Counted from the first letter of the stretch, positions 11,116-60,479 are shown. The stretch: 64,000 nucleotides of DNA from Eledone cirrhosa (GCA_964016885.1 OZ024754.1:23932001-23996000), one strand, 5' to 3'. Notes: generated from the sequence alone by a model not told the origin. A program made the numbers and translations.

Positions 11116-12028
11116 CTAGCAGTAAAGCCCGGCGTTGCTCGGGGTCGCTCAGTAGCTGTGTTAAAGTTACAATGTTAAGTTTCTTTTTTGGCTTAAAAAC
11201 TGTAGTGTCTACTGTGCAGACTTGCATGTGGTGTTTTTGATTAATATTCCCTCAAACAACAATATGCCTTATGAAGTTAAGAAAACATAACGATAACCCG
11301 AATGTTATAACAAAAGAGGATGCTGGGGATAAAAACTGCACTGGTTATTTATTAACAAAGATCGAAAATGTAAACACTGCAACGCAGATAAAAACATTAG
11401 CGTAACCAAATTATCAGTTATGTCTGTCTGCACGCCTATATCACCTCTCTGCACGACTGTCTGTCTGCACGCCTATATCACCTCTCTGCACGACTGTCTG
11501 TCTGCACGCCTATATCACCTCTCTGCACGACTATCTGTCTGCACGCGTATATCACCTCTCTGCACGACTGTCTGTCTGCACGACTGTCTGTCTGCACGCC
11601 TAACGACGAAATATTTGCTTGTTTTACGTAGTCTTTAAGTAGACTTGTTTTCAAGTAAAAATATTGTTTTAAAATGCTTTTAAATGGAAATGAAGCAAAA
11701 CGGAAGCTTAGTGTTCGAACTGATGAATTTTGCAGGTCAATATTTTGCTGGCTCGACAACTGTTAAAGCCAGCGTAATTTTTTACGTAAGACGCTCAATG
11801 TAAACAGAACAAAGGGAAATAACTGATAACTTACGCTCAAAAATCGATACATTATATTCGATTTCGTCACATAGGGTGGGTCAATTTGAAATTTTTTTTT
11901 CCGATGTCTTCGCTAGGGCTCAATGTACAAGTATAGCAATTTCGGTGCAATTCCGTGAGAGATTCTAAGAGGAGATGTGTGCCAAAAATCGATAGACTGA
12001 CAGACAACCACAGTTTTATATATATAGA
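11116..12028 (-). mobile_element. Non-autonomous Helitron
   Basis: Minus strand begins A|TCTATATATATAAAA and ends with hairpin CCCGAGCAACGCCGGG, a short spacer and CTAG|T. A/T target, no TSD. Confidence 0.8.
11421..11600. repeat. 37-bp minisatellite inside the Helitron
   Basis: TGTCTGTCTGCACGCCTATATCACCTCTCTGCACGAC, about 4.5 copies. Confidence 0.9.
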
Positions 12029-12587
12029 TTGTAAATGTTAATATATTATTATTATATTATTATTGTGACATCTATATTGTTTGTGTAAATTAACCGGTGA
12101 TTATCTATTCTATTATATTGTATTATATAGTATATAATTATATTATTTATTATTTATTATTTATTATATGTGCTACTTATAATTATATCATATTATTACC
12201 TCATGTATATTGGGTAGATGTATTAGTATTATTATTATTATTATTTTCATTCCTATCATGCTTATTTTTATATTCAAATTCTTAATAAGGTTTAATTTGT
12301 GCAGTTGAAGATGGATGTGTGTATTGTTGTATGTGTATGTGTGTGTACGTGTGCGCACATATATACATATGCATATTGTATCTTTTGATTTTTATTGTAA
12401 TTTTAATGTTGGTAAAGGTATATTATAGTATATTATATTGTATTATATATAATTCCTGCTCTATATAACCACCTTTCTTTAGCTCTAGTGTTTTTTTGCT
12501 TTGGACTATATTTGTAATATGGTTCTTAATGTTATATACATCCTTAGTAATTTTTATCATATATTTTTATTATATATTTTTGTAATA

Positions 12588-12749
12588 CTTCAGTGTATGT
12601 ACACTCCATATTCTTCGGAGCTTCCGGCTTGTATCTGCCGATATTACTTCTTGTTGTTTTAATTGCCCTGATGAGTCCTTAATAGGACGAAACATTGTCG
12701 GCTAATAAAGACTTTTGATGTATTGAAGGCTTCTTTATTTTACTGTCTT

Positions 12750-12752
<3 letters not shown>
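12588..12752 (+). mobile_element. PLE-type 3' end (pLTR family F)
   Basis: HHR plus AATAAA (12704), then (TA)n. Near-identical inverted copy at 14939-15104 and a diverged copy at 14641-14800. Confidence 0.75.
12663..12705 (+). ncRNA. Canonical minimal type I hammerhead (family F)
   Basis: gcc-CTGATGA-gtcct-taat-aggac-GAAA-cattg-TC-ggc. GUC triplet. Confidence 0.92.
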
Positions 12753-13664: not shown

Positions 13665-14541
<877 letters not shown>

Positions 14542-14685
14542 AATTGAAATACTAGAGTGTGTTGGAGTTAAACACCCTCTTCATATTATAGAAATGACAG
14601 TAAAGGTATAGCTCAATGTAATTAAACAGAGCCGAAGAATTATGAAAATAAACCAAAGAAGCCTTCAATACATCAAAAGTCCTTA

Positions 14686-14728
14686 TTAGCCAACAATGTT
14701 TCGTCCTATTAAGGACTCATCAGGGCAA
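14686..14728 (-). ncRNA. Hammerhead family F, diverged copy (GUU triplet)
   Basis: Reverse complement reads gccCTGATGAgtccttaataggacGAAAcattgTTggc. Confidence 0.88.
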
Positions 14729-14859
14729 TTAAAGCTATAAGAAGCACTATCAGCCAATACAAGCCGAAAACTCAGAAGAATATGGAGGGTACATAGATTA
14801 AATCATAGGAAAATAATCGGGTAAAAATTATGAAGTAAAAAATTATCTATATATATATA

Positions 14860-14940
<81 letters not shown>

Positions 14941-14984
14941 AAGAGAGTAAAACAAAGAAGCCTTTAATACATCAAAAGTTTTTA

Positions 14985-15027
14985 TTAGCCGACAATGTTT
15001 CGTCCTATTAAGGACTCATCAGGGCAA
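14985..15027 (-). ncRNA. Hammerhead family F
   Basis: Reverse complement is identical to the 12663-12705 core. Confidence 0.9.
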
Positions 15028-15102
15028 TTAAAACAACAAGAAGCAATATCGGCAGATACAAGCCGGAAGCTCCGAAGAATATGGAGTGTACATACACTAA
15101 AG

Positions 15103-17521
15103 TGTTTATAATAAACATTTTGAAGACCTAATCGCTATAGAATAGAATACGTCACGTATTACAATTAGATTCTCGATAAAAGCAAGGGAAGTAACCTACG
15201 CGTTTCATTCTTATTAGAAATCTTCAGGATTACATATCCAGTGCTTTTATCGAGAATGACACAGCTAGAGACTTATAGAATACTTAGCTGTGTACAGGAA
15301 CTGGTTTGAAAGAGCGGTTGCCGGTCCGGCAGAAATTAGAAATTGGATTAAATGCTCTGAAATAGCGATATATATGTGAAGATAGACATAGAATATTCGA
15401 AAATATTCTGTATGTTTATAATAAACATTTTGAAGACCAATCGCTATAGAATAGAATACGTCACGTATTACAATTAGATTCTCGATAAAAGCAAGGGAAG
15501 TAACCTACGCGTTTCATTCTTATTAGAAATCTTCAGGATTACATATCCAGTGCTTTTATCGAGAATGACACAGCTAGAGACTTATAGAATACTTAGCTGT
15601 GTACAGGAACTGGTTTGAAAGAGCGGTTGCCGGTCCGGCAGAAATTAGAAATTGGATTAAATGCTCTGAAATAGCGATATATATGTGAAGATAGACATAG
15701 AATATTCGAAAATATTCTGTATGTTTATAATAAACATTTTGAAGACCTAATCGCTATAGAATAGAATACGTCACGTATTACAATTAGATTCTCGATAAAA
15801 GCAAGGGAAGTAACCTACGCGTTTCATTCTTATTAGAAATCTTCAGGATTACATATCCAGTGCTTTTATCGAGAATGACACAGCTAGAGACTTATAGAAT
15901 ACTTAGCTGTGTACAGGAACTGGTTTGAAAGAGCGGTTGCCGGTCCGGCAGAAATTAGAAATTGGATTAAATGCTCTGAAATAGCGATATATATGTGAAG
16001 ATAGACATAGAATATTCGAAAATATTCTGTATGTTTATAATAAACATTTTGAAGACCTAATCGCTATAGAATAGAATACGTCACGTATTACAATTAGATT
16101 CTCGATAAAAGCAAGGGAAGTAACCTACGCGTTTCATTCTTATTAGAAATCTTCAGGATTGCATATCCAGTGCTTTTATCGAGAATGACACAGCTAGAGA
16201 CTTATAGAATACTTAGCTGTGTACAGGAACTGGTTTGAAAGAGCGGTTGCCGGTCCGGCAGAAATTAGAAATTGGATTAAATGCTCTGAAATAGCGATAT
16301 ATATGTGAAGATAGACATAGAATATTCGAAAATATTCTGTATGTTTATAATAAACATTTTGAAGACCTAATCGCTATAGAATAGAATACGTCACGTATTA
16401 CAATTAGATTCTCGATAAAAGCAAGGGAAGTAACCTACGCGTTTCATTCTTATTAGAAATCTTCAGGATTACATATCCAGTGCTTTTATCGAGAATGACA
16501 CAGCTAGAGACTTATAGAATACTTAGCTGTGTACAGGAACTGGTTTGAAAGAGCGGTTGCCGGTCCGGCAGAAATTAGAAATTGGATTAAATGCTCTGAA
16601 ATAGCGATATATATGTGAAGATAGACATAGAATATTCGAAAATATTCTGTATGTTTATAATAAACATTTTGAAGACCTAATCGCTATAGAATAGAATACG
16701 TCACGTATTACAATTAGATTCTCGATAAAAGCAAGGGAAGTAACCTACGCGTTTCATTCTTATTAGAAATCTTCAGGATTACATATCCAGTGCTTTTATC
16801 GAGAATGACACAGCTAGAGACTTATAGAATACTTAGCTGTGTACAGGAACTAGTTTGAAAGAGCGGTTGCCGGTCCGGCAGAAATTAAAAATTGGATTAA
16901 ATGCTCTGAAATAGCGATATATATGTGAAGATAGACATAGAATATTCGAAAATATTCTGTATGTTTATAATAAACATTTTGAAGACCTAATCGCTATAGA
17001 ATAGAATACGTCACGTATTACAATTAGATTCTCGATAAAAGCAAGGGAAGTAACCTACGCGTTTCATTCTTATTAGAAATCTTCAGGATTGCATATCCAG
17101 TGCTTTTATCGAGAATGACACAGCTAGAGACTTATAGAATACTTAGCTGTGTACAGGAACTGGTTTGAAAGAGCGGTTGCCGGTCCGGCAGAAATTAGAA
17201 ATTGGATTAAATGCTCTGAAATAGCGATATATATGTGAAGATAGACATAGAATATTCGAAAATATTCTGTATGTTTATAATAAACATTTTGAAGACCTAA
17301 TCGCTATAGAATAGAATACGTCACGTATTACAATTAGATTCTCGATAAAAGCAAGGGAAGTAACCTACGCGTTTCATTCTTATTAGAAATCTTCAGGATT
17401 ACATATCCAGTGCTTTTATCGAGAATGACACAGCTAGAGACTTATAGAATACTTAGCTGTGTACAGGAACTGGTTTGAAAGAGCGGTTGCCGGTCCGGCA
17501 GAAATTAGAAATTGGATTAAA
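15103..17521 (-). repeat. Tandem array of 310-bp HHR-bearing monomers (~7.8 copies), retrozyme-like family A
   Basis: Unit starts at 15103, 15413, 15722, 16032, 16342, 16652, 16962 and 17272. Copies are nearly identical and each has one HHR. Confidence 0.95.
15191..15233 (-). ncRNA. Type I hammerhead family A (first of 8; others start at 15500, 15810, 16120, 16430, 16740, 17050, 17360)
   Basis: gtaatc-CTGAAGA-t-ttct-aata-agaa-t-GAAA-cgcg-TA-ggttac. Palindromic ACGCGT stem III. Stem I is extended by the 16-bp attctcgataaaagca/tgcttttatcgagaat helix. Confidence 0.9.
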
Positions 17522-17546
17522 TTATTCACATATATATCGATATATA

Positions 17547-17672
17547 TTCTATTCTATAGCGATTAGGTCTTCAAAATGTTTATTATAAACATACAGAATA
17601 TTTTCGAATATTCTATGTCTATCTTCACATATATATCGCTATTTCAGAGCATTTAATCCAATTTCTAATTTT
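17547..17672 (+). repeat. Inverted partial copy of the 310-bp monomer
   Basis: Reverse complement of the unit segment aattagaaattgg...gctatagaatagaata. Confidence 0.9.
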
Positions 17673-17781
17673 ACAGCTGTAGATATTGCGCTGTATCTTA
17701 TATCTAATATCAATATCTCATGGTAATTTGCATGCAATGTAAAATAGGTTTATTAATAACTTTAATATGAAATGTATTATA

Positions 17782-17869
17782 CAGGGCTACGGAGTCGGCC
17801 AAAAATTGACTGGCTCCAACTCAGGATCCGATACTCCATTATTTCCTAAATTTCAGCTCCGCAGCTCTG
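17782..17869. mobile_element. hAT-type MITE (88 bp)
   Basis: Imperfect TIRs CAGGGCTACGGAG / CTCCGCAGCTCTG. 8-bp flanks GTATTATA / TTATTATA match 7 of 8. Confidence 0.6.
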
Positions 17870-18120
17870 TTATTATATTAATTAATTTATTTTATAGTTG
17901 TAAATCATATTTTTATATGTTACACTCTAAGAATTAACTAAGTGAAATAGCGTAAAAATAAAGGCTTCGTTGGTTTAAGCTATTTTTATAAAGGATGCCA
18001 CAGTATGTACGATATATAATGATTACAATATTTTTTAGCAACAACTCTAGTCCCACACTTTTGAAGGTTTATTATAACATTCTGTGGCACTTTTGAGCTT
18101 GCGCATTTTTCATGTCTAGT

Positions 18121-18213
<93 letters not shown>

Positions 18214-18214
18214 C

Positions 18215-18413
<199 letters not shown>

Positions 18414-18416
18414 TAT

Positions 18417-19926
18417 ATCTCAGATATGCACCTGTCCAAGTCCCAGATTGATTTCATTCTGGTGAGGAAAAAGTGGCGGAATAGTGTTCTGAACACGGAA
18501 CCATACAGCTATTTCAGTACACTGGGTAGTGACCACCGGCTTGTTATGAGTGAGGTCCGCGTGAGCTTAACAAAGAGCAAGGCTCAGCCCCGGAGAACAA
18601 TCTATGACTGGGGATCTTTCAAGGAAGATGATAAGCTACAGGAGAGGTTCACAGTGGAAGTGAGAAACAGGTTTAGTGCTCTGTGTGGAGAGTCAGAGGA
18701 GAGAGAGATTGGATGGACTGAGGAGAGTGTGACGAGGAGGTACGGGCACTTCACCAATGCAGTGGCGAAAGCAAGTGAAACCCTGGTGCCGAGGAAAAAG
18801 AACAAAGGGAAGCACGTCAGCTCTGCTAACCCAAAAGTGTGTGCAGCCAGAGAACACCTGAAAGCTGCCAGGGACCAATTCTATGCTGATCCTACGGAGG
18901 AGAGGATGGAGACTGTGGAGGTGATGAGGGAAGAGCTCTGTACCGCTTACACTGAGGTCAGAGAGGAGGCACTGATAGAGAAGATCAGAAGTGTGGAGAG
19001 AGCGGTTGACAGATCTGGATGTAAGGAGAGCTGGATGATCATCAACGAGATCACAGGGAGGAAGAAAAGGTGTTCGAGTCAGATCCAGGGAACGGGGCCC
19101 AAGGATAGGAAGAGGAAATGGCTAGACCCTTTTAGGACCCTACTAGGAGAGCCACCCTCCACAGCCCAGAGCACTGGGGAGATCAGGCGGCTGTTTGAGG
19201 AACTAGATGTTGAGAAAGAGCCCTTCACCAGAGAGGAGCTTCAGAGAGCCAAGAAGAAGATCAAGGAGGGCAAGGCTCATGGAGAAGATGGAGTGGCATC
19301 AGAGGTGATGAAGAGGTGTGATTTTGATGATATCAACCTGGGGTTCTGTAACGGGGCACTGGAGAAAGGAGTTGCCCCGAATCAGTGGAGGATCAGTAAC
19401 ATCGTCCCAGTGCCAAAGAAAGGAGATCTCTCTAACACCAACAACTACCGGGGGATCTCACTGACGTCACTTGTGGCAAAGACCCTCAACAGGATGATTC
19501 TTAACAGGATCCAGCCTGAGATGGAGAAGAAGCTCAGGGACAACCAGAACGGCTTCAGAGAGGGTAGATCAACCACCAGTCACATCCTGATGCTGAGGAG
19601 GATATTAGAGGGAGCTAGAGCAAAGTGCCTTCCTGCGGTCATGGTTTTCATTGACTTTAGGAAGGCCTTTGATTCTGTGGACAGTTACTGCCTGATGAAG
19701 ATCTTACAGGCTTATGGAATCCCCAAGAGGATAGTGGACCTGATATCACTGCTCTACACCAACACCAAAGCCCAAGTCATTACACCTGATGGGATGACAG
19801 AGTTCTTTGAGATACTGGCTGGAGTGCTCCAGGGAGATACATTGGCTCCCTACCTTTTTATCATCGTAGTGGACTATTGTATGCGCCTTGCACTGGAGAA
19901 ACACCAGGACTCTGGCTTTACTGTAA
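18417..19926 (+). pseudogene. RTE-group LINE internal fragment (end of APE to RT motif B), open frame
   Basis: QIDFILV, SDH, NYRGISL, QNGFR, DFRKAFD and [10 protein letters not shown] motifs. Near-identical to part of 61128-64000. Both ends lie in (TA)n. Confidence 0.93.
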
Positions 19927-37464: not shown

Positions 37465-39833
<2,369 letters not shown>

Positions 39834-40126: not shown

Positions 40127-41180
40127 CATATACATATATACATATACATATATACATATATATATATATACATATATATATACATATATATAGAAAGGAT
40201 GAATATAAAATGAAAGTGCTTTTGTTAAAAAAGGAATTTATTAGGTATTGACATATGTTTCTGTAACAGACCGAATACCTATGTATCGCTGCTTGCGTAA
40301 TCATATAATGTTAGCAAGTATTCGATAGCAAATGTATAATCAGTTGTCACTTCTTCAGAGATTTTGGATAAACTGGATAAAATCAGAAAAATTGAAGTAT
40401 TTATATTAGTAAAAGAGAAAGGAACAGAGGGGATAGAATATGACAGATGGTAAAATAATTTACTGCTAAACAAGTATATAATGGGTTTTTAATGAGAATA
40501 CCATGAGTAAATCTAAATAAGAATTTTGGGAGTGCCAATTTTAATCTCTACTTGACCAACTGGACAGTGGACAGGGCTGGTCATTTGGTGCAGAAGTATT
40601 AATTATAAAGTGTCAATTGGGGAAGGGGGAGATTTCGATTGCTACTAAATAACATCAATGCTAGTAGTCAGCTGGTATTTGCACTAGGGAATTGAATCAA
40701 GAAATCAGAAATCTCATTTTATCTATAGCAGTTTGTATTAAAAGGTAAATAATAGAAGAGTTGATAGAATTAAGACTAATAAAGAATGTTCATATCTATT
40801 TTGACAATCAAACGGGGATAAAGACAGGCGTTCAATCCTGGTAGTATTTATATTCAACCTGAAGGACCACAAGGTAAACTTCGATACTAACCCTAATATT
40901 AGACTTATATGCCCCTCTAAATCTGATATAGGTAAAATTAGCAAATATATACTAGACAGAATTATCCCCCAAGTTAAGGTTAAAGTAGAGATTAAACTAT
41001 GGGGTAACACTCATGAAGCAATAAGATGGTTTAACAACATTACTGATAAGAAAAAAATCAAAATTTATTCAGTTTGATATTGATGAATATTATTCCTCAA
41101 TTTCACCTGATACTCTACATGAAGCTCTTTCGTTCGCTAAGGATAATTCCGACCTTACGGATGCTGAAATTAAAATTATT

Positions 41181-42188
41181 ATGGAAGCGAGAAAAACTAT
41201 AGTTAAATTCGATGATAGCTACTGGGTTCGCAAAGATAGACCTTCTAATTTTGATATCACTATGGGTTCTAATGATTCGGCGGAAGTAACAGATCTTGTG
41301 GGAATTTATATCACCCACAGATTACAAGGAAAATTCAAGGATCTCCACGGTGGAATTTACCGTGACGATGCGCTCCTATTAGTTAAGCATATGAATAACC
41401 AGAATTTAGAAAGGATGCGTAAAAATATCAGAAAACTTTTTAAAGAACTAGGATTAAATATTACATTTGAATATAACCTCAAAGAGGTCAATTTCCTTGA
41501 TGTTACTTTCAATCTCAATACAGATACGATTAAACCGTTCCATAAACTAAATGAGAACCTTAAATATGTAAATACGAGTTCTAACCATCCACTCTCTATA
41601 ATTAAATCCATCCCTAGAAATGTTTCTCTTAGAATCTCCCGCCTATCGTCCAACCAACAAACCTTCAAAGAACATGCCGAGTATTATGATGATGCACTTA
41701 GGAAAGCCGGTCACCTAGATAATATAGAGTATATAGTCAATGATCACCAAAACACCCAAAATAAATCACATAGGAGTAGAAATAGCACAGAATCACCACC
41801 ATACATACACTACCGCAATAGACACAATAATAGTCGCACACCACCAAACAGAAGGCGATGTAAGGAGTATATCTGGTACAACCCGGTCTATAACAAATCT
41901 ATTAAAACCAATCTACCCTCAAAATTCTTTCGATTAGTTAGAAAACACTTTCCAACATCACATAAATATAATAAAATCTTAAACCCTAACACCATTCGAC
42001 TTTCATATTCAACCGCCCCTAATATTGAACAACATATAAAAAAGCTTAACGCAAAACGGTTGTATAAACGCCTTCCAACACATAACAATACACGTAAAAC
42101 ATTAGCTATAACATCACAAAACAACAAACAACATCCTGTCCTACATAAGCAACCTCATCAACCCATCCATGGCAATACAACAACGTAA
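41181..42188 (+). pseudogene. PLE-D RT/thumb fragment (GIY-YIG continues to ~42640)
   Basis: 335-aa ORF homologous to PLE-C. Confidence 0.9.
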
Positions 42189-43111
42189 AATTGTAATTGC
42201 AACTGTGTCCAACCAGGAATGTGTCCGTTGAACAATCAGTGTCTTGAACGCAACATCGTATACAAATGTACTATCGAATCGGATAGACAGAAGTGGTACT
42301 ATGTGGGATCTACAGCCACCTCCTTCAAATCACGCCTTTATAGACATCGTTATTCGATAAAACATGAAAACCAGCGTTATGTAACAACACTCGCAGACAA
42401 GGCTTGGCAGCTGCGTGAAAATAACCAACAATTTCACCTAAAATGGGATATAATAGCGACTGCCCCCCCCCCCCCCCCATAATCCAATGGACAGGAATTT
42501 TGTAAATTATGTAATGTAGAATTATTTTGTATTATGAAATCCAAAAACATTTTATTAAATAACAGAATAGAGCGATCGTTATACTGTAACCATCGCTTAA
42601 AATCTACATTTTCATATTATAAATACTACCAGGATTGAACGCCTGTCTCTATCCCCGTTTGATTGTCAAAATAGATATGAACATTCTTTATTAGTCTTAA
42701 TTCTATCAACTCTTCTATTATTTACCTTTTAATACAAACTGCTATAGATAAAATGAGATTTCTGATTTCTTGATTCAATTCCCTAGTGCAAATACCAGCT
42801 GACTACTAGCATTGATGTTATTTAGTAGCAATCGAAATCTCCCCCTTCCCCAATTGACACTTTATAATTAATACTTCTGCACCAAATGACCAGCCCTGTC
42901 CACTGTCCAGTTGGTCAAGTAGAGATTAAAATTGGCACTCCCAAAATTCTTATTTAGATTTACTCATGGTATTCTCATTAAAAACCCATTATATACTTGT
43001 TTAGCAGTAAATTATTTTACCATCTGTCATATTCTATCCCCTCTGTTCCTTCCTCTTTTACTAATATAAATACTTCAATTTTTCTGATTTTATCCAGTTT
43101 ATCCAAAATCT

Positions 43112-43228: not shown

Positions 43229-43390
43229 ATAAATTCCTTTTTTAACAAAAGCACTTTCATTTTATATTCATCCTTTCTACATTTCTCCGCAATATAATTT
43301 ATACTCGTTGAGCAAACCTGCACGTACGCTGTTCATCTCTAACGTAACGATATATTATCACTACATTATTGATAACCTGAAATTTTATAC

Positions 43391-43448
<58 letters not shown>

Positions 43449-46309
43449 CACCCTCAATATATATATATATATACATCACCCTCAATATATATATATATAT
43501 ACATCACCCTCAATCCAACAAAAGACAACCCCCCAACCTCAACACTCTGTACCACAGAAATAACGCACCCAGACCACATGAACCAACAACAGAACCCTTG
43601 CTCATCAACAACCACAACACATACCACCCCCACCATCACATTCACCCTCATGAAACAACAAGCTACAGACCCACACGCAACAGACCAACAAAATATAATC
43701 ACACACAAAACTACATTCTTTTTTTAGGGAAAAGCCTGAAATACCAGGATACTCGATGCCCCCCCCCCCCTCAGGAGAAACCAACAATAATCAACCTCAC
43801 AAAGACACCTCTAACCAACACACAAATCAACATTTTAAGTAAGGGCCTGAAATTTACACCACGTAAACCAAACTTCCCCGAAATGAAGGATGACATCATG
43901 GAATACTGCCGAAAGCTGCGACTAACGGAATTCTTCCACAACGACACCAACACTGAAGACGAATCACTGGTTAGAAATAAAAGCAATTTCTGCCCACAAA
44001 AGGGAAGAAATAAAGCACTGGACACGTACTGCGAACACATCACCAACTTTCCCTATGAAAAAATTACAAATAAACACACGAAATCAAACCTATCTACACA
44101 CGAATGGGAAGAATTATTCACACTTAGAAACAACCCTGAGATAACTATCAAAGAAGCCGATAAAGGCAGTACTGTTGTCATTATGAATACGGACTACTAT
44201 AGGACCCTCGCACTTAACATTTTAGAAAACAACACATACTATGAAAAAACAGAAAACTACAAACACACCAAAACAATGGGGAACCTTTTGACCTTACTGA
44301 ATAAATACCGCAACAGCTTAACCACAAAAGAGTTTAACTATATAAGCCACTTCAAATGCAATACAAGCTCTTTTTACGGCTTACCGAAACTCCACAAATG
44401 TAAACCCATAAACGATGCATGTGACACCTCAACCAACAATTACATTGAACTAACACCACCAGAAGACCTAAAACTCAGGCCAATTATAGCAGGCCCTACA
44501 TGTGAAACCCACAGACTTAGCAACTTTCTGGACATCCTACTGAAACCCTTTCTACAACATATACAGAGCTACATACGAGATGACCTTGACATGCTTAAAC
44601 ACCTCCCTAAAACAGTAAGTGCAAATACAATTCTTGTCTCCTTTGACGTAATAAACCTCTACACAAACATACCCCACAACTATGGAATAACAGCAGTCCA
44701 ATACTGGCTTAACACACACCCATCAGAAATACCGACACGCATCAACACAGATTTTATCACTGACGGACTCCGCTTTATCCTACAAAATAACTACTTCACA
44801 TTCAATGGTTCAACATACAGACAAGTATCAGGTACGGCAATGGGCACGAAAGTAGCACCCACATATGCCAACCTAGTCATGGGATTCCATGAACAACAAA
44901 TATACAGTCAGTCCCTTCTCTTATTTGGAGACTCTTTCCACACACACCTCAAAGCCAATTGGAAAAGATATCTAGACGAGTGCTTTATCCTATGGCAAGA
45001 AGACATGAACTCACTTACTACGTTTAAAAACATGATAAACAACATAGATAATAACATACAATTCACAATGGAATCCAATCCTAAGGAATTAGCCTTCTTG
45101 GATATTCTAATCTCTGTAATAGACGGGAAATTAGATACAGATATATTCTATAAACCCACAGATTCCAAGCAATACCTCTTTTTCACATCAAGTCACCCAA
45201 AACATACAAAACATTCCTTACAATTTGGCCAAACGTATATGTACCATAGTATCAGATCCACCTAAACGGGAGCAAAGACTAAAGGAAATAAAAGACACCC
45301 TTATCTTAAGAGCCTTTCCACTTGAAATAATCAACAATGGAATAGACAGGGCAAAACACCTAAATCCCCATCAATTTAACAATCCAAAACAGAAAACCAC
45401 ACTCAACACCCTGCCATATGTATCCACTTTCAACCCCAGAAATACCGAAATGTTTGATCACCTACACAAAAACCTCCCCATCCTACTTAAAGATGTAAAA
45501 ATGAAGTCTATTCTTGAAACACACAAGATCCTTAAAAGTAAAAGACAACCCAAATCACTTAAACGCATTCTCACTGGACCAAATATACCCAAACCAATCC
45601 TCAACCCTACAGTTACCAAATGTAGTAGAACAAACTGTGGAACGTGCCTCTACCTCACTGAAGGACAAACATTTACATTCAAAGATGGCCAAACATTTAC
45701 AGTAAAAAAACAATTTCACCTGCAACTCGGAGAACTTGATTTACGCAATAACTTGCGGTGGGTGCAAACACAACTACATAGGACAGACGGGCACCTCATT
45801 ACGCAAAAGAATGACCATCCACCGCCAACAAATCCGGGACGCTAACACAAGAAAAATCCCCTTGAGCAGCCATATTGCGAACTGCGCAGGAATGACACTA
45901 CCCAACTTTAAAATCTTCCCCTTCTACAAGTGCTCAGATTCGTTCACACAGCAACAAAGAATAAACAAAGAAAATCTATTCCTTAACAAATTTAAACAAA
46001 AACTAAACGGGTTATCACCCCAATAGAATTGTCATAAAATATAAACACACATACGCACGGAATCACTACTATTAAAGACCAGAGACCAATTCTGTAGAAT
46101 CAGGTTTATTCGTTGACAGACCATGCCTTTGTGTGACCAACACATCCATGTTAAACCCTGCACGTGCACACACATATATCTATATATATATGCGCACACA
46201 GAATTTACCACTGTCGGTTGCGGGGCCCAATCTACATGAAGAACTCAATGTGATCAGAATGACTTGTATTTTAATTTCACTGTCCCAACTTCATATATTA
46301 TGGAAAAAA

Positions 46310-59751: not shown

Positions 59752-60216
59752 CTATATATAGGGCTTAAAGTTTTGGAAGGAATGTCTGAGGCGGTGTTGG
59801 CAAGTTGCAAACACCTCAGATTTTTTGTTAAGTAGGTTACGGTTGGAGAAGATAATATTGTGTGTCTCTAGTATACAGAGGTTACAGAATTTATTAGGTG
59901 GTTTGTACGAGGTCGCGCTGCCTATCACTTCCCATTTGAGTGTGTATGGTTTATTTTTAGATTTTAGATAGTGTATGTAGCTAGAAAGTGAGGTGGAGTT
60001 GGCTAGGCTGTGCTTTTTGAACGAGTGGATGTGCGAGTTATATCTAATTTTGAAGCAGTTAGAAGTGGAGCCTACATAGGTTTCTGAAGAGTTATTAGTC
60101 GTGACTGTGCATGAGTATATGACATCCTTGGTTAGGCATTTTTTATCTAAGGGGCAGGTTCTATTAGCTCTACAGTTACAATTATTCTGTGCGTTAGTCC
60201 GCTGGTTATAATGCAA
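59752..60216 (-). pseudogene. PLE GIY-YIG endonuclease domain (same type as PLE-C/D)
   Basis: CNCRANRTCPLDKKC, VIYSC..TYVGST and CNLCILE motifs. Confidence 0.9.
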
Positions 60217-60479
60217 TGCGGAAGTCTGTGTGGTGGATATAGGATTTTGGGTGTTCAGGTTGACAACCCTGGTGTTATTACTTATACTAGTGTTATTTCT
60301 ATTGTTACTGCCGTTGCTATTGTTGCTTGCTACAGTGGTATTTAGAGGGTTTGCATCCCGTTGTGATTTTGTAATGAATGTTGACCCACAATGTTTGAAT
60401 ATGTATCAATGTTTGAATATGTATTGGTATGTCTCTCGGCTGAAAAGGAGGTCATATAACTGTCCATGCATTAATAAAT

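What the first reader, a model, noticed from the sequence alone, without database searches (positions are those of the whole stretch)
14939..17672. 310-bp x8 hammerhead array fused to a PLE-type 3' end: apparent rolling-circle reverse transcript of a circular RNA
Seen: about 7.8 near-identical non-coding monomers, each with a minus-strand type I HHR (predicted cut between 15197 and 15196). The array boundaries (15103, 17521) do not coincide with the cleavage site. At 15103 the array joins directly, in the same orientation, to a 165-bp HHR/AATAAA pLTR-like end that abuts (TA)n. The far end is capped by an inverted partial copy. Known: animal non-LTR retrozymes are tandem 150-400-nt HHR repeats that yield circular RNAs and are proposed to use PLE enzymes, and PLE insertions often end in inversions. 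Inference: a PLE RT primed in (TA)n, copied a PLE 3' end, switched onto a 310-nt circle and went round about 8 times. That would be a physical record of the helper-retrozyme relationship.
Basis: partly seen in the sequence, partly recalled or inferred. Interest (0 to 1): 0.9.

Follow-up and report, generated by a model that had tools for sequence, protein, structure and literature searches.

The report
Retrozyme arrays with Penelope insertion signature
A 310-base non-coding repeat carrying a hammerhead-ribozyme motif is scattered through this animal genome as back-to-back arrays whose outer ends sit at two fixed points about 35 bases apart, a hallmark of Penelope-type retrotransposon insertion, so it is likely a retrozyme copied into DNA by a Penelope enzyme, probably from a circular RNA.

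Summary
In detail: 7.8 copies of a 310-bp unit, a minus-strand type I hammerhead in each, a Penelope-like (PLE) 3' piece on the left and an inverted copy on the right. It is one copy of a young dispersed retrozyme family. Of 107 other loci, 78 have one end near +130 and one near +165 from the predicted cut, at (TA)n; 76 are strictly head-to-head and none was classed as two like ends. This is the PLE two-start 'tail' signature. Variants fixed in one arm are in the other arm too (14 of 14), and 360 cut-site passages carry no added bases: one continuous template, likely a circle. The PLE join is unique to this locus. That PLE (Hydra clade) has a 101-nt tail and no detectable similarity to the unit. 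The right flank is a truncated repeat, so a deletion happened here anyway. Two units share a private variant, so eight laps are not shown. The helper is unidentified; cleavage and circles are untested. The scan noted a similar, ribozyme-free case in another genome. I found no paper describing this end anatomy for retrozymes.

The parts
14844..14938 (.). (TA)n tract next to the PLE end; inferred target of that PLE copy
14939..15102 (-). 3' piece of the pLTR of a young Hydra-clade PLE ('PLE-A'), ending at its short start site (about +53 from its hammerhead cut); hammerhead at 14984-15028
   Evidence: about 99% identical to other copies; family ends at +53 and +154; 913-aa ORF in L098; motifs against PMC8557442 section 11; Rfam
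15103..17522 (-). long arm of the retrozyme: 7.8 units of 310 nt; RNA-sense 3' end at phase +94 (atypical), 5' end at +154; 1-nt microhomology with the PLE piece
15191..15233 (-). first of 8 type I hammerhead motifs; predicted cuts at 15197/6, 15506/5, 15816/5, 16126/5, 16436/5, 16746/5, 17056/5, 17366/5; palindromic stem III predicted to need a second copy
   Evidence: PMC4209133 passages
17523..17544 (.). junction scar between the two arms, made of short pieces of the unit in both orientations
   Evidence: sequence shown
17545..17671 (+). second (inverted) arm, phase +48..+174; its 3' end lies at or just past the family's long start site (+165)
17672..18119 (+). last 448 bp of a young unrelated repeat ('B', ends CTAG then T); inferred target of the second arm; its left part is absent from the window
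18120..18418 (.). (TA)n tract at the natural end of repeat B
14539..14802 (-). separate, 87% identical PLE-A-type end with the long (+154) terminus; a neighbouring insertion in the same TA-rich tract, not part of the array

Best explanation
The array is one copy of a young, dispersed family of 310-nt hammerhead-bearing repeats (a non-LTR retrozyme) whose insertions end at two fixed points about 35 nt apart in (TA)n, and which is likely inserted by a Penelope-like reverse transcriptase-endonuclease copying one RNA, probably a circle, from both cut DNA strands. Shown: two fixed ends (about +130 and +165 from the predicted cut), head-to-head arms that pair one short with one long end, variable inner ends, TA targets, shared variants in both arms, seamless passage through cut sites. 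Inferred: tandem transcripts self-cleave as dimeric hammerheads, and monomers are ligated to circles that cannot cut themselves; a PLE enzyme nicks both strands in AT-rich DNA, starts one cDNA at +130 and the other at +165, runs on for a variable number of laps, and the two cDNA ends are joined by micro-homology. Later DNA-level duplication adds units to some arrays. At this locus the second arm likely primed inside repeat B, and a deletion (possibly made when the PLE-A copy inserted next door) removed the array's short end and the left part of B and fused the array to the PLE piece. My odds by step: PLE-type insertion of the family 0.85; circular monomer as template 0.6; deletion rather than template switch at 15102/15103 0.6.
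For: 78 of 107 other loci have one short and one long end, 76 strictly head-to-head, none classed short-short or long-long. In loci not chosen by their ends: 20 of 34 short+long, the rest without a second classed end, and 12 of 13. In loci chosen by a long end, 44 of 59 had a short end opposite and none a second long end. Two adjacent internal starts explain the tail that is unique to PLEs (PMC11167929); a 30-40 bp tail sits at one end of inverted PLE insertions (PMC8557442). Coding PLEs of this genome show the same two-end pattern. A sister family (321 nt, 57% identical overall, 83-87% at +121-150 and +181-210) ends at the homologous two points. Variants fixed in 2 or more units of an arm are in the other arm in 14 of 14 comparisons at 9 loci, against 0.8 in shuffles. 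360 cut-site passages: none with added bases, one with a 1-nt loss nearby. Inner ends are not enriched at the cut: 16 seen, 12.5 expected, 242 read-throughs. The unit folds as a circle with z about -5 and brings its ends together. Six hammerhead-region changes common in other samples keep the core and pairs. For the deletion: left part of B absent; join found only here.
Against: No cleavage, expression or circle was tested. The helper was not found: start regions of three coding PLE families tested show no significant similarity to the unit (p 0.12-0.32), and a two-family profile found no PLE pLTR in the fetched DNA. 11 of 33 long arms carry variants that recur in some units but not all, which one circle read once does not give; they need later duplication or conversion, or a multimeric template. 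A homogeneous donor array read uncut would also give shared variants and seamless passages. 27 single-coverage variants were not shared between arms (read here as later mutations). L042 has a 12-nt second arm ending near +164, a possible long-long pair below the 30-nt cut-off. The right end of this locus (+171-174, in a non-TA target) is off the mode. Head-to-head joins with other PLE ends exist (L196, L048, L202), so two-RNA events may occur. The loci sampled are those most like this unit; another subfamily dominates in other samples.
Confidence: 0.7

Rival explanations
1. One reading: one event in which a PLE enzyme primed in (TA)n on PLE-A RNA at its short site, switched after 164 nt to the retrozyme RNA and went round about eight times, while the other strand primed at the retrozyme's long site.
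For: The outermost PLE-type ends here are one short (PLE-A) and one near-long (retrozyme), which keeps the pairing rule. The PLE piece, array and B piece are all young. L196 joins a retrozyme long arm head-to-head to a PLE-A-related short end; L047 joins a retrozyme arm in tandem to another PLE. Template jumps have been proposed for PLEs (PMC3846280 passages).
Against: It still needs a deletion of the left part of B, so it needs one more rare step. Both arms normally share one template. PLE-A has a 101-nt tail and no similarity to the unit. The join is seen once in 108 loci. Joins into decayed, pre-existing PLE sequence occur (L055). Only 1 nt of microhomology.
Confidence: 0.3
2. Same PLE-type insertion, but the template is an uncleaved linear multimer transcribed from an existing array, as for the tandem RNA of a coding PLE; the hammerhead and circles are bystanders.
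For: In vitro the lizard PLE used unprocessed RNA and did not need hammerhead cleavage (PMC11167929). Eight of nine frog retrozyme dimers did not cleave in vitro (10.64898/2026.07.22.740005). Stems II and III here are weak. Arrays of 23-28 units exist as possible donors. Partly recurrent variants occur in 11 of 33 long arms.
Against: Several different rare variants are fixed through all units, some in both arms (for example 18 of 18 positions in L269, 7 of 7 in L194, 28 of 28 in the longest array), which points to a one-unit bottleneck at insertion. I saw no multi-variant unit pattern shared between loci (read by eye). Animal retrozyme RNA is mostly circular in the species tested (PMC7229834).
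Confidence: 0.3
3. The arrays are satellites grown locally at DNA level from a solo PLE terminal repeat by unequal crossing-over, and the inverted part is a fold-back repair.
For: This scenario is discussed for retrozymes (10.64898/2026.07.22.740005). Block duplications are visible in long arrays, for example a 10-unit period in one locus.
Against: More than 100 dispersed loci with near-identical units, each with its own TA-flanked fixed outer ends and different inner ends; many arms are shorter than one unit; no coding PLE with this sequence as pLTR was found in the fetched DNA.
Confidence: 0.05
4. The PLE-array join or the copy number at this locus is an assembly error.
For: The join is unique in the assembly among 40 scored candidates; the region is dense in repeats; long reads of this individual were not available.
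Against: The tandem joint itself is read 3,323 times in an independent raw-read run. The join has clean 99-100% matches on both sides, and units carry private variants.
Confidence: 0.07

Closest known systems
Animal non-LTR retrozymes (Cervera and de la Pena 2020, PMC7229834; Li, Clavereau and Pollet 2026, 10.64898/2026.07.22.740005)
   Same: Tandem non-coding 310-nt units, type I hammerhead in each, GC under 50%, no LTR architecture, predicted self-paired circle, co-occurrence with PLEs.
   Different: Those papers, in the parts I read, propose PLE mobilisation from co-occurrence, shared ribozymes and pLTR phylogeny, and mention larger TSDs; they do not describe two fixed start sites, short+long head-to-head arms or TA targeting. 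No pLTR homologue was found here. RNA untested here.
Penelope-like elements with pLTR tail (Poseidon of Anolis, PMC11167929; Hydra, Neptune and Naiad clades, PMC8557442; Adineta PLEs, PMC3846280)
   Same: Two internal reverse-transcription starts giving an optional tail, inverted 5'-truncated partner, AT-rich or (TA)n targets, hammerhead upstream of the starts.
   Different: No ORF; multi-unit arms of a short unit. The strict pairing of short with long end is seen here in the genome, whereas the in vitro work saw no strand difference in start site.
Non-autonomous Chlamys PLEs such as MRC1 (PMC8557442, passage)
   Same: Non-coding PLE derivatives with multicopy head-to-tail insertions.
   Different: They resemble their autonomous partners at the 3' end and belong to a group said to lack canonical hammerheads; here a hammerhead is in every unit and no partner similarity was found.

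Membership tests
non-LTR retrozyme | tandem units of about 150-450 bp | tested here: met
   310 bp x 7.8; arms up to 28 units elsewhere
non-LTR retrozyme | type I hammerhead in each unit | tested here: met
   core and stems in 8 of 8 units; structure-keeping variants in other samples; Rfam below cut-off
non-LTR retrozyme | non-coding, GC under 50%, no LTR pair | tested here: met
   longest frame 79 codons, GC 34%; no tRNA gene; primer-binding site and polypurine tract not searched
non-LTR retrozyme | dispersed, mobile | tested here: met
   107 other loci analysed, 113 exact long ends; polymorphism between individuals not shown
non-LTR retrozyme | self-cleavage and circular RNA in vivo | not testable with these tools
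   needs bench work or RNA reads
non-LTR retrozyme | target-site duplication longer than 4 bp when present | tested here: inconclusive
   ends lie in (TA)n, which hides duplications; no systematic search was run
PLE-mobilised insertion | two internal start sites giving a 30-40 nt tail at one end | tested here: met
   about +130 and +165; same points in the sister family
PLE-mobilised insertion | inverted, 5'-truncated partner arm and AT-rich target | tested here: met
   76 of 107 strict head-to-head pairs; inner overlaps mostly 0-3 nt
PLE-mobilised insertion | shared cis sequence with a coding partner | tested here: not met
   not met for the three families tested by alignment and for fetched PLE loci by profile; other PLE families of the genome were not examined
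pLTR of a coding PLE | unit flanks an RT-GIY-YIG ORF | tested here: not met
   outer ends abut TA tracts; ORFs touching inner ends are unrelated families at variable positions
Hydra-clade PLE (for the 14939-15102 piece) | C-terminal GIY-YIG without CCHH, RWK-like, DKT and CxCx5C motifs, canonical hammerhead, (TA)n target | tested here: met
   913-aa ORF of L098 shows RWR, DKT, CxCx5C and CxxC before the conserved E against PMC8557442 section 11; no Pfam hit; no tree was built

The most novel reading that the evidence does not exclude
These arrays are direct genomic prints of rolling-circle, target-primed reverse transcription: one Penelope-type enzyme complex starts on a single ribozyme-made RNA circle at two fixed sites 35 nt apart, one site per DNA strand, and writes two outward-facing concatemers. 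This would show that PLEs mobilise animal retrozymes and that the PLE tail comes from an obligate short+long division of labour between the two strands.
Probability: 0.5. Interest if true: 0.82.

Novelty: new member of a known kind. Interest (0 to 1): 0.62.

Why it matters
Which enzyme moves animal retrozymes, and whether the circle is the template, has been proposed but not shown in the papers I read. This family gives exact predicted start sites (+130, +165), a target (TA)n, a conserved cis region (+121-210) shared with a sister family, and a short list of intact PLE families in the same genome, so the question can be tested directly in the existing in vitro PLE assay. The strict short+long pairing on opposite strands also constrains how PLEs finish both strands, a step that is still undefined.

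Tried and rejected
Rfam at gathering score: no hit in the window. Pfam on the PLE-A ORF: no family. Sequencing runs: no RNA holder listed, which says nothing about expression. Laying 3 contig sets and 1 RAD-seq run on 14945-15412: no listed piece bridges 15102/15103; these are not known to be the assembled individual and a hole proves nothing. Search for a second copy of the join: only this locus among 40 scored candidates. Helper search: profile of the two retrozyme families against fetched DNA and against 30 + 30 newly fetched PLE loci gave no pLTR match; start-region alignments to PLE-A (tail 101), a second Hydra family (tail about 88) and a third coding family (tail 40) were not significant; a Neptune-like family could not be added to that test because no copy continuing past its long end was matched. 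A 20-nt likeness to PLE-A (E 0.56) and a look-alike hammerhead family were set aside as chance or unlinked. AATAAA as a polyadenylation signal: not needed, the end is a family start site. End-to-end jumping on cut linear monomers: rejected, no added bases at 360 passages. Excess of short-arm inner ends at +11-14 (7 seen, 1.3 expected in one set) is uncorrected for multiple windows and not used. Literature searches for this end anatomy in retrozymes found none; subscription papers are not searched and supplements were not read.

Full report
Observation. The window lies in a 3.0-Gb animal assembly; the named relatives of its PLE protein are molluscan or other marine invertebrate, and I did not identify the host further. 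The array is as described: 7.8 units of 310 bp at 15103-17522, 0-2 differences per unit, a minus-strand type I hammerhead motif in each with the predicted cut at 15197/15196, a 164-bp PLE piece at 14939-15102 against (TA)n, and an inverted piece at 17545-17671. Below, +1 is the first base after the predicted cut. Stem III is the palindrome ACGCGU. Such short palindromic stems work as dimers in tandem transcripts and are thought to spare monomeric circles (PMC4209133, passages). Rfam gives only sub-threshold support. In runs from other samples under the same species label, six common changes in the ribozyme region fall in N7, loop II or keep stem I paired.

The family. A search of the genome gave 425 first-look candidates, 39 scored; an exact pattern for one end gave 113 hits and 0 for the control. 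I analysed 107 other loci: 34, 59 chosen by that end pattern, 14. Outer ends are RNA 3' ends at two places: a short end, about +130 (often read +139 because the unit continues with TA-like bases), and a long end, +165. 78 of 107 loci have one of each, 76 strictly head-to-head; 18 have only a long and 11 only a short end; none was classed as like-like. L042, with a 12-nt second arm ending near +164, may be an exception. The pattern does not come from how loci were chosen: 20 of 34 and 12 of 13 loci not chosen by their ends are short+long and the rest have no second classed end. Inner ends fall at many phases and usually overlap by 0-3 nt or carry short inserts. A sister family of 321 nt is 57% identical overall but 83-87% at +121-150 and +181-210, and ends at the homologous two points (22 of 24 loci show at least one such end).

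What this means. In vitro a lizard PLE nicks both strands in AT-rich DNA and starts reverse transcription at two adjacent internal sites, which explains the tail unique to PLEs (PMC11167929, parts 1-2 of 4 read). PLE insertions often carry an inverted 5'-truncated copy and a 30-40 bp tail at one end (PMC8557442 and PMC3846280, passages). Coding PLEs in this genome show the same two ends in inverted pairs. The retrozyme thus carries the full PLE insertion signature with a 35-nt tail. That a PLE enzyme made it is inference, but strong.

The template. Variants fixed in two or more units of one arm were in the other arm in 14 of 14 comparisons at 9 loci; shuffled pairs gave 0.8. So both arms come from one template or one source. 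360 passages through the cut site show no added bases, and inner ends are not enriched there (16 seen, 12.5 expected, 242 read-throughs), so the template is continuous across the cut: a circle or an uncut multimer. Different rare variants fixed through whole loci (8 of 33 long arms) point to a one-unit bottleneck and favour a circle, as does the fold (z -3.7 linear, about -5 circular) and the finding that animal retrozyme RNA is mostly circular (PMC7229834, abstract and sections 14 and 17). Against: 11 of 33 long arms have variants in some units only, including this one (units 4 and 7), and one array shows a 10-unit period. Later DNA duplication therefore adds units, and unit number is not lap number. 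The lizard PLE used uncut RNA in vitro, and eight of nine frog dimers did not cleave (10.64898/2026.07.22.740005, parts 1-3 of 5 read). I put the circle at 0.6.

This locus. It is atypical at both ends. The left piece belongs to a young Hydra-clade PLE (913-aa ORF, RWR, DKT, CxCx5C) with starts at +53 and +154 from its own ribozyme. It meets the array at +94 with one shared base. Among 107 other loci only L196 has a PLE-A-like piece within 100 bp, joined head-to-head, and a search with the join found only this locus among 40 scored candidates. The right arm ends at +171-174 inside another young repeat, B. The displaced B bases resemble +166-174 of the unit, so this can be an ordinary long start in a non-TA target. 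The left part of B, over 1.6 kb in other copies, is not in the window. A deletion therefore occurred. The simplest reading is that it also removed the array's short end and fused it to the PLE piece, perhaps when that PLE copy inserted. A template switch remains possible (0.3): it keeps the short+long rule, and joins to other PLE ends occur in L196, L048, L202 and L047 among 25 single-arm loci examined. But some such joins are to decayed sequence (L055), which points to resection into neighbours.

The helper. Not found. The genome holds many intact PLE families. Start regions of three coding families gave no significant match to the unit, and a profile found no pLTR match in the fetched DNA. 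One family has a 40-nt tail, close in length, which is a lead only.

Comparison and novelty. The element meets every retrozyme feature I could test and is a new member of that kind. PLE mobilisation and rolling-circle copying are already proposed (PMC7761336, passages). What I did not find in seven searches is the insertion anatomy for retrozymes: two fixed starts, strict short+long pairing, shared template. Subscription papers and supplements, including those of the 2026 preprint, were not seen and could bear on this. An earlier scan note describes a ribozyme-free tandem element with PLE-type ends in another genome; I did not test it.

Verdict. Real feature; family-level mechanism well supported; locus-level helper claim not supported. 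Interest 0.62, because it turns an open proposal into a precise test.

Noticed in passing
L223 (G000:C14:23498000-23507999), L141-L164, L166, L165, L177: Sister retrozyme families of about 321 nt whose hammerhead core reads UUGAUAA (C3 to U with G8 to A) and has a longer palindromic stem III; one array has about 28 units; same two insertion ends.
   Followed up: partly
L317:3557-6640 and L287-L301, L317-L336: Abundant young coding PLE family (20,908 first-look candidates) with a 40-nt tail and short+long inverted pairs, and no canonical hammerhead seen upstream of its starts; closest tail length to the retrozyme.
   Followed up: partly
window 1429, 1836, 31818, 32422, 33445; L036: Another hammerhead family, spaced about 515 bp in L036, with ends about 126 and 160 nt after its cut; likely a further retrozyme with similar geometry.
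   Followed up: partly
window 8737, 24611 (minus), 2589, 20959, 32857, 32947, 35236: At least four more hammerhead-like families in this one window; the 8737/24611 family follows a Neptune-like GIY-YIG ORF.
   Followed up: partly
window 37474-39681 (-), 40853-42623 (+), 59761-60258 (-), 43376-46000 (+): Further PLE coding remnants: three similar to the Hydra-type ORF (32-67% identity) and one from a young family with many intact copies.
   Followed up: partly
window 17672-18119; L116-L139, L282-L284: Repeat B: young, over 2 kb, non-coding in the part seen, ends CTAG followed by T (Helitron-like, label recalled), with a 212-bp internal inverted copy of its end.
   Followed up: partly
retrozyme loci L171, L174, L178, L190, L200, L203, L217: Short arms often stop at +11 to +14, the base of the long predicted stem next to the ribozyme (7 seen, 1.3 expected, uncorrected): a possible pause site or a minority of cut templates.
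   Followed up: no
L218, L219, L220 (G000:C8:39.74-39.88 Mb): Three related copies of one retrozyme locus with 1.3 to 8.7 units before an interrupting insertion or end: segmental duplicates that show unit number changing after insertion.
   Followed up: no
window 12025-12751 (+) and 14539-14802 (-): Two more PLE-A-type ends near the array, one short and one long, each against (TA)n; the TA tracts are repeat targets.
   Followed up: partly
runs X1, X2, X7, X23 laid on 14945-15412: A subfamily differing at about six unit positions is the majority in other samples; the subfamily of this window is the minority there.
   Followed up: partly
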